Shown: positions 60,218 to 62,194 of the stretch, in pieces
How the letters are laid out: each line of letters opens with the position of its first letter
How positions within the stretch are numbered: position 1 is the stretch's first letter
Origin: Escherichia coli
Lineage (GTDB): Bacteria; Pseudomonadota; Gammaproteobacteria; Enterobacterales; Enterobacteriaceae
Assembly (NCBI RefSeq): GCF_965641715.1
Contig: NZ_OZ282453.1
Length of the DNA: 64,000 bases
Strand: one strand, 5' to 3'
Notes under the pieces: model-generated
Databases searched by the model: none
What the model was told of the DNA's origin: nothing
The model's input: only the letters and a program-made list of their open reading frames with translations
Program-made: the position numbers and the translations under genes

Positions 60218-60901
60218 TTACTCTCTGAAGGTCTGAATTACGTCACTTATGAAACGAAAGTGTGGGAGGGCTGAAATGAACTCTTCACTGGCAGTCAGAG
60301 CATCAAGTTCAGGCTTTCTGCGAAAAGAGGTATCCAGAACGGTTACGGCGTTAACGTCTTCCATCCGAAACACCTGTAAATTTCTGGTGCGGGTAGCAAC
60401 AAGAAACCAGTTTTTGGACTGAAATATCAGACGGCGGGGAGCTACTGCTTCGTAGCTTTTACCGTTAACTAATAATGTAACGGCGCGGTAGTCGCGGATA
60501 GCTTCCGCCAGTTCCAGAAAACAGGCGGTTTGTGTAACTGGAGATGGCAGCCCTCCATGCCCTATAAGGCACGGCGAGCTTCCGGAGTTACTGGTAATCA
60601 GTCGAATTAACCTGCGATTCTGAGCCGGAATAATCCCTGAAATCCCGGAATTACGGATAAACGCAAAGGTGTTGGGTGAGTGCTCCCGGCCCGTTCGGCG
60701 GGTAAGTCGATAGCTTCCGCTGGAATGCTCAAGATCCAGATGGATTAGGCGTTGCTGAAAATCCCTCTGTAGGGTGCGTTCTGAGACACCAAATTCATCA
60801 GCTAACGCTTTAAGCTCCAGAGATTCGCCAGCTAGTAAGCGGGTGATAATGACCGATAGCCTGACAGACAGGCGGTCATAATGATCATGCTGTGTTTTCA
60901 T
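60218..60901 (-). CDS. YfjR-like HTH transcriptional regulator (DeoR/WYL-type)
   Basis: ORF 60218-60988; likely start MKTQHDHYDRL; N-terminal HTH (LKALADEFGVSERTLQRDF). Confidence 0.65.
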   Translation of the reverse strand: MKTQHDHYDRLSVRLSVIITRLLAGESLELKALADEFGVSERTLQRDFQQRLIHLDLEHSSGSYRLTRRTGREHSPNTFAFIRNSGISGIIPAQNRRLIRLITSNSGSSPCLIGHGGLPSPVTQTACFLELAEAIRDYRAVTLLVNGKSYEAVAPRRLIFQSKNWFLVATRTRNLQVFRMEDVNAVTVLDTSFRRKPELDALTASEEFISALPHFRFISDVIQTFRE

Positions 60902-61216
60902 GGTGGGGACAGTCCTGTTCTCCCAAAATATCATGGTATTGATACGAGAGATTATGCCGTACAGGTACGACACGTTATGTCGTAGCAAAGGGGAGTGGAT
61001 AGAAAAAATGGCGAAGATGTGAAGAGTTGATTAATTCATTGAAACAAAATGAATTAATAATAATTTTGGGTAAAAGCGACGTCAAAATACGACATAACCT
61101 GTCGTATTTTGTTTTAGCCGGGAAAGGATAACTGCTACTTACTAAAATGATTTAGTGCTGAAAATATTTATAAGCCAATAAATAGACCGGTATTACGGAG
61201 TAACGCCCCGGCTATG

Positions 61217-62194
61217 TTAACGTGCCCGCTGTTTTATCGGCTCAAAAAACATATCCCAGAGATGTTCAGCCATACCCTCGTTAGTGAGCAAGGTATCCCT
61301 TGAGTAGCCAGGGCTGAAGACGCCCATTGATGGGCGAAAACCAAGGTTCTGGCCGTTATTGTCAATGGTTAAGATTTCATTGTAAGCATTGCCAATCACG
61401 CCATCCTGGCTATAACCAATATCGCCCATCCCCATATTTCGCCCGCTATTACGCCAGATTGCACATTGACCTACTTTGCTTCCCCCAATGTAGATCGCAC
61501 AAGTGAAGGCATCTGCGTCACGCTTATTAAAATCGACCTCTAACCCGGCATGGCGTTTTTTGAGTTCAGTCAGCGAGCCTTCAAAATAACGGGCGACATA
61601 TTCAAAACCGTCACGGCAGGCACGATCCTTATCAAGATCGGTAAAACGTTTTGGCAGTGAAAGGTTGCTCGAGCGTGGTGTAAAAACGGTATCCGTCGCC
61701 TGAAGCATTGGATTAGCCGGAGCTGGGGCGTGCACAATCTGTTGCGGCTTTTTCGCTTCCAAATTGGCAATAGCGCGGGAAACGGCATCGACAACCTGAA
61801 CATAGCCTTCATCATGGCTGGCAAATTTATCAATTGGCTTACCGTCAACAGTTGCCGCCAGAATGCGGCCAAACGGTAACATCTTCCACGCGCATTCTCT
61901 TAAGATCACCGGAATGACCACCGCCTCGCCCCGGCTATGTCGCTCCAGAGCGTTGGTCATTTCTACCTGATAGCAATAATCAGAAGCGATAAAATCACTG
62001 CTAATCAGCAACAGGATGATGTCTGCCTGAGAAAAGTAATGATCTATTTGGTTCTCAAACTCTTGTCCTGGAATGATGCGACGATCATGCCATGTCGTGA
62101 TCTTGCCCATGCGTTTCAGGGGGGAAAGATGCTTCTCAAGCTCATTGCGCAGAGCTTCGTCTGCATGAGAATAGGAAAAAACAAGAGAGGTCAT
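61217..62194 (-). CDS. TIR-domain protein with C-terminal domain of unknown function
   Basis: N-terminal TIR_2-like signature (VFSYSHADEALRNELEKHL ... ADIILLLISSDFIASDYCYQVEMTNALERH ... VIPVILREC); C-terminal ~200 aa unassigned. Confidence 0.75.
   Translation of the reverse strand: MTSLVFSYSHADEALRNELEKHLSPLKRMGKITTWHDRRIIPGQEFENQIDHYFSQADIILLLISSDFIASDYCYQVEMTNALERHSRGEAVVIPVILRECAWKMLPFGRILAATVDGKPIDKFASHDEGYVQVVDAVSRAIANLEAKKPQQIVHAPAPANPMLQATDTVFTPRSSNLSLPKRFTDLDKDRACRDGFEYVARYFEGSLTELKKRHAGLEVDFNKRDADAFTCAIYIGGSKVGQCAIWRNSGRNMGMGDIGYSQDGVIGNAYNEILTIDNNGQNLGFRPSMGVFSPGYSRDTLLTNEGMAEHLWDMFFEPIKQRAR

What the first reader, a model, noticed from the sequence alone, without database searches (positions are those of the whole stretch)
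60218..62194. TIR-domain protein with unknown C-terminal domain next to a YfjR-like regulator
The 325-aa ORF has a clear N-terminal bacterial TIR signature followed by about 200 aa I cannot assign. No ThsA-like partner or other obvious effector is adjacent. It sits between a Type I hsdM and a CP4-like module, beside an HTH regulator of the kind that often controls defence genes. It could be a stand-alone TIR NADase defence or abortive-infection gene. It is not TcpC-like, since the TIR is N-terminal.
Basis: partly seen in the sequence, partly recalled or inferred. Interest (0 to 1): 0.7.

Follow-up and report, generated by a model that had tools for sequence, protein, structure and literature searches.

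The report
Stand-alone TIR defence gene beside restriction system
This is an intact E. coli gene for a two-domain TIR protein from a large, widespread but uncharacterised family (the y4lF family). It most likely acts alone as an NAD-consuming anti-phage suicide switch, and it is persistently found next to Type I restriction systems.

Summary
Window 61217-62194 (-) is an intact 325-aa ORF. It has an N-terminal TIR domain with the catalytic glutamate E78, kept in 95 of 96 homologues. It lies between a Type I hsdM and a YfjR-like WYL regulator.

- **Family.** The family is large: at least 568 species, and it includes y4lF of pNGR234a. PADLOC already models it full-length as "ThsB1".
- **No partner.** About 95 homologue loci were examined. 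None has a ThsA or any other universal partner.
- **Best reading.** A self-contained, single-gene abortive-infection enzyme. The C-terminal domain would sense or cluster on a phage-derived trigger and switch on the TIR NADase.
- **WYL regulator.** It belongs to the CP4-57-like backbone. Its palindromic operators lie only in its own leader, so it is probably not the TIR regulator.
- **New lead.** Four E. coli TIR alleles (76-84% identical) each abut a Type I R-M system of a different family (HsdM 23-28% identical). In other phyla the gene sits inside R-M or BREX operons. It may guard restriction systems.

Verdict: new member of a known kind, moderate interest.

The parts
61217..62194 (-). TIR-Y4lF gene (325 aa plus stop)
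   Evidence: ORF. Pfam TIR_2/TIR. PADLOC ThsB1 full length, E 3.1e-157. Exact protein deposited as E. coli.
61751..62194 (-). TIR domain, residues 1-148
   Evidence: Full-length AlphaFold model has pLDDT above 90 over this region. Foldseek top hits are MAL, RPS4, SPARTA and Cat1 TIR domains. Best PDB sequence hit is Cat1, E 6.9e-12.
61961..61963 (-). Codon of E78, the putative catalytic glutamate in S71-x-Y73-C74-x-x-x-E78
   Evidence: E in 95 of 96 aligned homologues. Position follows the S-x-W/Y-C-x-x-E motif of TIR NADases (established knowledge).
61649..61750 (-). Low-confidence linker, residues 149-182, ending in the conserved PRSSNL motif (61661-61678)
   Evidence: pLDDT 53-65. Mean identity 0.26. 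P173, R174 and S175 are invariant in A3.
61220..61648 (-). Y4lF C-terminal domain, residues 183-325: helix, six-stranded antiparallel sheet, helix
62195..62409 (.). Divergent intergenic region between the TIR gene and hsdM; contains the palindrome CTGACGTCAG at 62321-62330
   Evidence: About 190 bp next to the TIR start travels with the TIR gene even where the R-M family differs (L100).
62410..64000 (+). Type I R-M hsdM, first 530 codons; runs off the window
   Evidence: Translation with NPPF motif. In E. coli SCU-115 the operon continues as hsdS, DUF4268, hsdR.
60218..60901 (-). YfjR-like HTH-WYL regulator (227 aa from the ATG)
   Evidence: PADLOC WYL, E 4.8e-17. 42% identical to annotated yfjR. 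Annotated as a WYL protein in E. coli.
60943..61106 (.). Three TACGACA-N5-TGTCGTA palindromes (61088-61106 and 60966-60984 perfect; 60943-60961 with 2 mismatches). The 61088-61106 copy abuts the sigma-70-like promoter 61085..61057 (-) and the other two lie downstream of it, in the WYL leader.
   Evidence: The only perfect copies in 64 kb. Retained upstream of the WYL gene in the TIR-less island L012.
59165..60178 (-). YfjP-like GTPase, next gene of the CP4-57-like backbone

Best explanation
The gene encodes a self-contained, single-protein anti-phage abortive-infection enzyme of the y4lF (TIR-Y4lF) family.

Proposed mechanism (inferred by analogy, not shown):
- In uninfected cells the protein is latent.
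- The fast-evolving C-terminal Y4lF domain is a small helix/sheet/helix sandwich on a flexible linker. It binds a multimeric infection-associated ligand, such as a phage structural protein, or a change in a host complex.
- This brings the N-terminal TIR domains together, so that composite active sites form around E78.
- NAD+ is then cleaved, either depleting it or producing ADPR-type products, and this stops the infected cell.

Shown here: the gene is intact; the TIR fold and the glutamate are present; the two-domain, flexible-linker architecture; the absence of any conserved partner gene; and the location in defence islands.
For: - Intact ORF with a TIR domain.
- E78 conserved in 95/96 homologues; D37, G43, S65 and W103 invariant.
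- Canonical TIR fold; the nearest solved relatives by sequence and fold include the NADases Cat1, SPARTA TIR-APAZ and AbTir.
- Two confidently folded domains joined by a 30-35 residue low-confidence linker; pTM 0.55.
- The C-terminal domain diverges faster than the TIR domain: 0.34 against 0.50 mean identity overall, and 0.67-0.69 against 0.87-0.93 among enterobacterial relatives. This is the pattern expected of a sensor in an arms race.
- The Y4lF domain occurs almost only fused to TIR.
- Neighbourhoods of 84 loci from many phyla share no universal partner. The identifiable neighbours are mostly defence genes: R-M, BREX, SIR2-HerA, Hma, retron RT, PD-T7-5, GajB-like.
- Precedents exist. Single-protein TIR systems in E. 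coli (TIR-V, VI, IX) are triggered by portal or tail-fibre proteins (PMC11350192). SpbK has a sensor domain, a linker and a TIR domain, and is activated by clustering on a portal dodecamer (PMC12847820).
Against: - No experiment bears on this protein. NADase activity, the trigger and sufficiency of the single gene are all inferred.
- PADLOC files the family as ThsB, a signal-producing TIR that needs ThsA. A trans-encoded effector elsewhere in the genome cannot be excluded from 64 kb.
- About 28% of homologue loci carry a small adjacent gene from one of three unrelated families, S1, S2 and S3. Some lineages may therefore use a second component that this window lacks.
- In E. coli far more genomes carry only a 128-142 nt remnant of the gene than an intact copy.
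- 20 of the 32 E. coli TIR systems tested by Wang et al. showed no activity (PMC11350192). I could not establish whether this family was among those tested.
Confidence: 0.55

Rival explanations
1. Restriction-system guardian. The TIR-Y4lF protein is functionally wired to the adjacent Type I R-M system, and to BREX or other methyltransferase-based systems elsewhere. It would be held inactive by, or would monitor, the HsdM/HsdS complex. It would fire when a phage anti-restriction protein (Ocr, ArdA or Stp-like) disables that complex. PrrC does this within EcoprrI, and RonA does it within Ronin.
For: - Four E. coli alleles of the TIR gene (76-84% aa identity) each abut a Type I R-M system of different gene order and family: M-S-DUF4268-R, M-M-S-R, R-M-S, and WYL-R-M. 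HsdM is only 23-28% identical and HsdR 23-29% identical between them.
- TIR and R-M phylogenies are decoupled. TIR of L001 and L006 are 76% identical while their HsdM are 95% identical. Adjacency persists through R-M replacement.
- 17 of 84 loci have hsdM within 10 kb, 16 of them with hsdR as well. These include 9 of 11 Enterobacterales and 8 loci from other phyla; in 5 of those 8 the TIR gene lies within about 0.7 kb of hsdM on the same strand, and in a sixth it directly follows hsdS: L028 (hsdM-hsdS-TIR), L046, L048, L050, L054, L085.
- Other loci sit after a Type III mod gene (L034), after HmaC/DUF499 (L029), or between PglX and PglZ of BREX (L010).
- The concept and its precedents are established: PrrC and PARIS as 'RM guardians' (PMC12707154), Ronin (10.1101/2023.04.06.535777), and DarTG2 embedded in a Type I R-M system (PMC12255303).
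Against: - About 80% of loci have no Type I R-M system within 10 kb.
- Defence genes cluster with R-M systems for reasons unrelated to function, and I could not compute a matched background rate.
- Hundreds of E. coli genomes keep the R-M-S system after deleting most of the TIR gene. The R-M system therefore does not need it.
- The enterobacterial pattern could arise because the TIR gene flanks a cassette-exchange hotspot.
Confidence: 0.17
2. Orphan ThsB. The protein is a Thoeris-type signal generator. Its ADPR-derived product would activate an effector encoded elsewhere in the genome (ThsA or another receptor), or a lineage-specific small partner.
For: - Full-length match to PADLOC ThsB1|ThsB (1-325 against 1-319/319, E 3.1e-157).
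- ThsB proteins are TIR enzymes with the same catalytic glutamate (established knowledge).
- E. coli does carry type I and type II Thoeris in some strains (PMC11350192).
- Small conserved adjacent genes S1, S2 and S3 exist in about 28% of homologue loci, including the gene downstream of y4lF itself.
Against: - No ThsA-like gene (SIR2/SLOG or Macro) is adjacent in the window or in any of about 95 homologue loci.
- Thoeris is defined by a linked thsA-thsB pair.
- S1, S2 and S3 are unrelated to each other and to known defence families, and all are absent from the window.
- The NCBIfam Thoeris model scores 16 bits against a cut-off of 220.
- The A1 profile does not reach solved ThsB structures at E below 0.01.
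Confidence: 0.15
3. Not a defence gene. It could be a TIR protein with another role (a host-directed virulence factor such as TcpC, or a housekeeping NAD-linked function), or a decaying passenger of the island.
For: - TIR proteins of uropathogenic E. coli can act on host signalling (TcpC; established knowledge).
- Most tested E. coli TIR loci showed no anti-phage activity (PMC11350192).
- The gene has been deleted in most E. coli islands of this type.
Against: - There is no secretion signal or TcpC-like architecture; the TIR domain is N-terminal.
- The family is found in free-living soil, marine and cyanobacterial taxa.
- Where the neighbours could be identified they are mostly defence genes.
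- The catalytic residue and both domains are strongly conserved, which argues against decay.
Confidence: 0.06

Closest known systems
Thoeris ThsB (PADLOC model PDLC00420 'ThsB1|ThsB')
   Same: A TIR enzyme domain with the conserved glutamate. The PADLOC profile covers the whole protein, including the C-terminal domain.
   Different: No ThsA is next to it here or in any homologue locus examined. NCBIfam Thoeris models do not reach their cut-off. No sequence-level match to solved ThsB structures at E below 0.01.
y4lF of Sinorhizobium fredii NGR234 plasmid pNGR234a (namesake of Pfam PF27176)
   Same: Full-length homologue, 46% identity over residues 1-321, with the same TIR-linker-Y4lF architecture.
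   Different: y4lF is followed by a conserved 161-aa gene (family S2) that the E. coli locus lacks. It is plasmid-borne and is not next to an R-M system. It is uncharacterised too.
SpbK of Bacillus subtilis ICEBs1
   Same: A single-protein TIR NADase carried on a mobile element. It has a small sensor domain, a flexible linker and a TIR domain, and is activated by clustering on a phage portal (PMC12847820).
   Different: The domain order is reversed (sensor N-terminal in SpbK). There is no detectable sequence relationship, and the sensor fold is different.
[quoted passage not shown] 2024)
   Same: E. coli chromosomal single-gene TIR proteins in which only a TIR domain was recognised. All are abortive and depend on the TIR active site (PMC11350192).
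   Different: Identity with this family could not be checked, because the accession table (Supplementary Data 2) is not held. The triggers reported there are portal and tail-fibre proteins, not R-M-related.
PrrC (in EcoprrI) and RonA (Ronin): abortive effectors linked to Type I R-M
   Same: An abortive-type effector gene kept beside or inside Type I hsd operons (PMC12707154; 10.1101/2023.04.06.535777).
   Different: Unrelated proteins (an anticodon nuclease and a 61-aa membrane peptide). Functional coupling of TIR-Y4lF to the R-M system has not been shown.
Cat1 (CRISPR-associated TIR 1)
   Same: The best solved-structure sequence match of the TIR domain (E 6.9e-12). It is a TIR NADase whose second domain drives activating assembly.
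   Different: The partner domain of Cat1 is a cA4-binding CARF domain within a type III CRISPR locus. Here the partner domain has a frataxin-like fold and no CRISPR link.

Membership tests
TIR domain NAD+-cleaving enzymes | TIR fold recognised by a profile | tested here: met
   Pfam TIR_2, E 3.9e-13, and TIR, E 3.5e-06. Foldseek hits to MAL, RPS4, SPARTA, Cat1 and AbTir TIR domains.
TIR domain NAD+-cleaving enzymes | Conserved catalytic glutamate after the S-x-(W/Y)-C motif | tested here: met
   E78 within S71-D-Y-C-Y-Q-V-E78; E in 95/96 homologues.
TIR domain NAD+-cleaving enzymes | NAD+ cleavage activity | not testable with these tools
   Needs a biochemical assay.
Thoeris (ThsA + ThsB) | Protein matched by a ThsB profile | tested here: met
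   PADLOC PDLC00420 ThsB1|ThsB, E 3.1e-157, full length. The NCBIfam Thoeris type III ThcB4 model scores only 16 bits against a cut-off of 220.
Thoeris (ThsA + ThsB) | Linked thsA effector gene (SIR2-SLOG or Macro/TM) in the same locus | tested here: not met
   None among the window island ORFs. No ThsA-like cluster in 84 loci. None in the Pfam-annotated contexts or among operonic neighbours.
Thoeris (ThsA + ThsB) | Produces a diffusible ADPR-derived signal that activates ThsA | not testable with these tools
   Needs metabolite and lysate assays.
y4lF family (TIR + Pfam PF27176 Y4lF domain) | C-terminal Y4lF domain after an N-terminal TIR domain | tested here: met
   PF27176 is precomputed on homologues 95% identical and named. 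The window protein is 46% identical, full length, to y4lF of pNGR234a. The Pfam copy used by profile_search predates the family.
Single-protein sensor-TIR abortive systems (SpbK type; TIR-V/VI/IX) | Sensor domain, flexible linker and TIR domain in one polypeptide, with no obligatory partner gene | tested here: met
   Two-domain model with a low-confidence linker. No universal neighbour.
Single-protein sensor-TIR abortive systems (SpbK type; TIR-V/VI/IX) | The gene alone confers phage resistance, triggered by a phage protein | not testable with these tools
   Requires cloning and phage challenge. The accession list of PMC11350192 is not available.
R-M guardian / R-M-linked abortive effectors (PrrC, Ronin) | Persistent genetic linkage to Type I hsd genes | tested here: met
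   Four E. coli alleles sit beside four different Type I families. hsdM is within 10 kb in 17/84 loci, 16 of them with hsdR, several operonic in other phyla. No background rate was computed.
R-M guardian / R-M-linked abortive effectors (PrrC, Ronin) | Activation by inhibition of the R-M complex, or binding to it | not testable with these tools
   Needs co-expression of Ocr, ArdA or Stp and interaction assays.
WYL-regulated defence locus (BrxR/CapW type) | The regulator's operator lies in the promoter of the defence gene, and the regulator co-occurs with the gene | tested here: not met
   The TACGACA-N5-TGTCGTA sites lie only in the WYL leader and none lies upstream of the TIR gene. The sites and the WYL gene persist in TIR-less islands. 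Among the 80 loci from other species, this WYL protein has a homologue in only one, L016. That the palindromes are the WYL operator is itself an inference.
TcpC-like virulence TIR proteins | C-terminal TIR domain with an N-terminal targeting region | tested here: not met
   The TIR domain occupies residues 1-148.

The most novel reading that the evidence does not exclude
TIR-Y4lF may be a family-independent guardian of methyltransferase-based immunity (Type I R-M, BREX and others). On this reading the Y4lF domain docks on, or monitors, the HsdM/HsdS-type complex. When a phage anti-restriction protein disables that complex, the TIR NADase is released. This would be a TIR-based counterpart of PrrC or Ronin, conserved from E. 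coli to Acidobacteria.
Probability: 0.15. Interest if true: 0.72.

Novelty: new member of a known kind. Interest (0 to 1): 0.4.

Why it matters
Single-gene TIR proteins are among the simplest immune sensors known, and how they recognise infection is largely open. This family is very large (at least 568 species), is already labelled ThsB by a widely used annotation tool, and yet never sits with ThsA in the loci examined. Automated "orphan ThsB" calls may therefore hide an independent system. Its dedicated C-terminal domain has no known function. If the persistent linkage to Type I R-M and BREX reflects function, it would add a TIR enzyme to the short list of systems that guard restriction against phage anti-restriction proteins. 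If it does not, the gene is one more ordinary passenger of an E. coli leuX defence island.

Tried and rejected
- **Sequence match for the C-terminal domain.** The A1 profile against PDB returned TIR hits only. The current local Pfam returned nothing beyond TIR.
- **Other architectures of Y4lF.** The word-indexed search with the C-terminal profile found only TIR-Y4lF proteins or truncations. A CHAT fusion appears once in AFDB50 and was not pursued.
- **Literature.** No paper mentions 'Y4lF' or 'PF27176'. No follow-up on TIR-V or TIR-IX was found. The supplement of PMC11350192 is not held, so equivalence to TIR-V/VI/IX is unresolved.
- **First genome scan.** It was repeated with 16 sequences.
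- **Phage carriage.** None of 50,697 phage records carries the gene. Only 2 full-length hits were found in IMG/VR. A phage or satellite payload as the main habitat is rejected.
- **Small downstream genes S1, S2, S3.** They have no PADLOC or Pfam match. They are unrelated to each other or to the Y4lF domain by hhalign. They are absent from the window. They are rejected as a missed partner here.
- **WYL as the TIR regulator.** Rejected on operator position and co-occurrence.
- **Intrinsic terminator after the TIR gene.** The scan found none on the minus strand. The AT-rich palindrome at 61083-61111 is read as an operator instead.
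Full report
**1. The observation**

The window holds an intact 325-aa ORF at 61217-62194 (-) and a second ORF at 60218-60988 (-). The first carries an N-terminal TIR domain: Pfam TIR_2 over residues 6-114 (E 3.9e-13) and TIR (E 3.5e-06). The second is an HTH-WYL protein (PADLOC WYL, E 4.8e-17). Its annotated start in E. coli is the ATG at 60901, giving 227 aa. It is 42% identical to annotated yfjR.

Upstream and divergent, hsdM starts at 62410 and runs off the window. Downstream lie a YfjP-like GTPase and a CP4-57-like module.

The exact TIR protein is deposited from E. 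coli. The same arrangement occurs in 52 complete E. coli genomes. In strain SCU-115 it is part of a leuX tRNA island. The order there is integrase, SBD-HNH, hsdR-DUF4268-hsdS-hsdM, the TIR gene (divergent from hsdM), WYL, GTPase, and then the AlpA, Gp2-like, DUF932, RadC, YeeU and CbtA module.

**2. What the protein is**

PADLOC's profile PDLC00420 'ThsB1|ThsB' matches residues 1-325 against 1-319 of 319 profile positions, with E 3.1e-157. The whole two-domain protein is therefore already a modelled family. Homologues 95% identical carry the precomputed Pfam domain PF27176, named Y4lF. The namesake, y4lF of pNGR234a, is a full-length homologue at 46% identity.

The family is large:
- 3,561 cluster representatives at 50% identity score E of 1e-30 or better. 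Many are 310-330 aa and match end to end at 35-54% identity.
- At least 568 of the scanned species encode a relative. They span Proteobacteria, Cyanobacteria, Planctomycetes, Verrucomicrobia, Acidobacteria and Bacteroidetes.
- 45 plasmids carry it.
- No phage record carries it, and IMG/VR holds only two full-length copies.

**3. Anatomy**

In a 96-sequence alignment D37, G43, S65 and W103 are invariant. E78, in the motif S71-D-Y-C-Y-Q-V-E78, is kept in 95 of 96 sequences. By established knowledge of TIR NADases this is the catalytic glutamate.

AlphaFold gives a confident TIR domain (residues 1-148), a low-confidence linker (about 149-182) and a confident C-terminal domain. Mean pLDDT is 90.5, but pTM is 0.55, meaning the two domains are not fixed relative to each other. 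The linker ends in a conserved PRSSNL motif.

AFDB50 returns almost only TIR proteins with this domain, and a profile search of the domain finds only TIR-Y4lF proteins. The C-terminal domain diverges faster than the TIR domain. Mean identity is 0.34 against 0.50 overall, and 0.67-0.69 against 0.87-0.93 among enterobacterial relatives.

**4. Partners**

I examined Pfam-annotated contexts and clustered all neighbouring ORFs of 84 loci. No universal neighbour exists, and no ThsA-like family appears. PADLOC scans of the window's island ORFs also found none. Membership of Thoeris therefore fails on its defining feature, the linked thsA gene, despite the ThsB profile match.

Where they could be identified, the immediate neighbours are mostly defence genes. 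They include SIR2-HerA, BREX, Type I and Type III R-M, HmaC/DUF499, a retron RT of type VI, PD-T7-5, and a NERD-UvrD helicase.

About 28% of loci have a small adjacent gene. These fall into three unrelated families:
- S1, about 105 aa, in Enterobacterales.
- S2, about 160 aa, including the gene after y4lF.
- S3, 125 aa, in Pseudomonas and Halomonas.

These are documented. None has a PADLOC match and S2 has no Pfam match, and none is present in the window.

**5. The regulator**

Two perfect copies and one imperfect copy of TACGACA-N5-TGTCGTA lie between the TIR stop codon and the WYL start codon. The copy at 61088-61106 abuts the -35 hexamer of a sigma-70-like promoter; the other two lie downstream of that promoter, in the WYL leader. 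They are the only perfect copies in 64 kb, and none lies upstream of the TIR gene.

The same sites remain upstream of the WYL gene in an island that lacks the TIR gene. Of the 80 loci from other species, only one (L016) encodes a homologue of this WYL protein. I conclude, by inference, that the WYL protein autoregulates the CP4-57-like backbone operon and is not the dedicated regulator of the TIR gene.

**6. The neighbour that recurs**

In E. coli I found four alleles of the TIR gene, 76-84% identical in protein. Each sits next to a Type I R-M system with a different gene order:

| Locus | Order of the adjacent Type I R-M genes |
|---|---|
| window / L001 | M-S-DUF4268-R |
| L100 / L103 | M-M-S-R |
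| L101 | R-M-S |
| L102 | WYL-R-M |

The HsdM proteins of the three families compared (L102 was not included) are only 23-28% identical, and HsdR 23-29%. The trees are decoupled. TIR of L001 and L006 are 76% identical while their HsdM are 95% identical. TIR of L006 and L100 are 84% identical while their HsdM are 28% identical. About 190 bp of TIR-proximal intergenic DNA travels with the TIR gene across an R-M swap.

Across all 84 loci, 17 have hsdM within 10 kb, and 16 of these also have hsdR. These are 9 of 11 Enterobacterales and 8 loci from other phyla. In 5 of those 8 the TIR gene lies within about 0.7 kb of hsdM on the same strand, and in L028 it directly follows hsdS. L028, for example, reads hsdM-hsdS-TIR, and in L050 the order is hsdM-TIR-S2, with hsdR further downstream. 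Elsewhere the gene follows a Type III mod gene or lies between PglX and PglZ of BREX.

This resembles PrrC within EcoprrI, RonA within Ronin, and DarTG2 within an EPEC Type I system (PMC12707154; 10.1101/2023.04.06.535777; PMC12255303). It could equally reflect defence-island clustering or a cassette-exchange hotspot. I could not compute a matched background rate.

Against an obligate link, about 400 E. coli genomes keep the R-M-S system beside a 128-142 nt 3' remnant of the TIR gene. The deletion runs from about codon 278 to about 90 bp upstream of hsdR. Only 117 genomes have at least 80% of the gene.

**7. Mechanism**

The best-supported explanation (confidence 0.55) is a self-contained abortive-infection enzyme. 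The Y4lF domain would sense or cluster on an infection-associated ligand, and the TIR domains would assemble and cleave NAD+ through E78.

- Shown: gene integrity, TIR fold, the glutamate, the two-domain flexible architecture, the lack of a partner, and the defence-island context.
- Inferred: enzymatic activity, the trigger, the abortive outcome, and sufficiency of the single gene.

The inference rests on single-protein TIR systems of E. coli (PMC11350192) and on SpbK (PMC12847820).

Rivals:
- R-M guardian wiring, 0.17.
- Orphan ThsB with an effector in trans, 0.15.
- No defence role, 0.06.

**8. Novelty**

The gene is annotated. Its family is modelled by PADLOC and Pfam, and single-gene TIR defence is established in E. 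coli. It is a new member of a known kind. Two things appear new, since neither turned up in the literature I could search. The first is that this 'ThsB1' family never accompanies ThsA in the loci examined. The second is its family-independent linkage to Type I R-M systems. Interest is 0.4. It would be higher (about 0.7) only if the guardian reading proves true, to which I give a probability of about 0.15.

Noticed in passing
window 42302-49275 (-): Two overlapping large ORFs (743 aa and 1581 aa) in the same island. Neither has a PADLOC or NCBIfam match; the 743-aa protein and the first 1100 residues of the larger one also have no Pfam match. This is a 7-kb operon of unknown function, flanked by an HNH/type IV-like ORF (40174-40824) and an HTH protein (50938-51744).
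   Followed up: partly
window 61217-61358; L012 7001-7142; L109 7001-7128; L110 7001-7142: About 400 complete E. coli genomes carry only the last 128-142 nt of the TIR gene. It is fused about 120 bp upstream of an R-M-S type Type I hsdR. The deletion removed roughly codons 1-278 and part of the intergenic region. Intact copies are rarer, at 117 genomes.
   Followed up: yes
L006 8986-9306; L016 11055-11363; L075 10970-11449; L093 6983-7468; L090 1821-2198; L094 5494-5847: Three unrelated small gene families lie immediately beside TIR-Y4lF genes in about 28% of loci: S1 (about 105 aa), S2 (about 160 aa) and S3 (125 aa). S2 follows y4lF itself on pNGR234a. None has a PADLOC match and S2 has no Pfam match. 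All are absent from the window.
   Followed up: partly
L064 1251-3126; L078 upstream of 7532-8497: In two Rhodobacterales genomes a retron-type reverse transcriptase (PADLOC RT_VI, E 7.5e-86) lies 19 nt upstream of the TIR-Y4lF gene on the same strand. This may be a split version of retron-TIR systems.
   Followed up: no
window 60943-61106: A 7-5-7 palindrome, TACGACA-N5-TGTCGTA, occurs twice perfectly and once with 2 mismatches in the leader of the YfjR-like WYL gene. The 61088-61106 copy abuts the promoter; the other two lie downstream of it. It is a candidate YfjR-family operator and is conserved in other E. coli islands.
   Followed up: yes
window 62321-62330: A perfect 10-bp palindrome, CTGACGTCAG, lies in the TIR-hsdM divergent intergenic region. 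It sits inside the roughly 190 bp that stays with the TIR gene when the R-M family changes, and it is degenerate in L100.
   Followed up: no
L001 20491-21684; L006 3558-4754 (beyond the window end): The Type I R-M operon beside this TIR allele carries an extra DUF4268 gene between hsdS and hsdR. It is conserved between E. coli and Enterobacter ludwigii.
   Followed up: no
window 61661-61678 (residues 173-178): A PRSSNL motif at the end of the otherwise variable linker is conserved. P173, R174 and S175 are invariant among 16 relatives, and the motif is present in the 96-sequence consensus. Its role is unknown.
   Followed up: no
L102 8645-9562: In a fourth E. coli context a different, 305-aa WYL protein lies between the TIR gene and the hsdR-hsdM operon. 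WYL regulators therefore recur near this gene-R-M pairing, although they are not orthologous.
   Followed up: no
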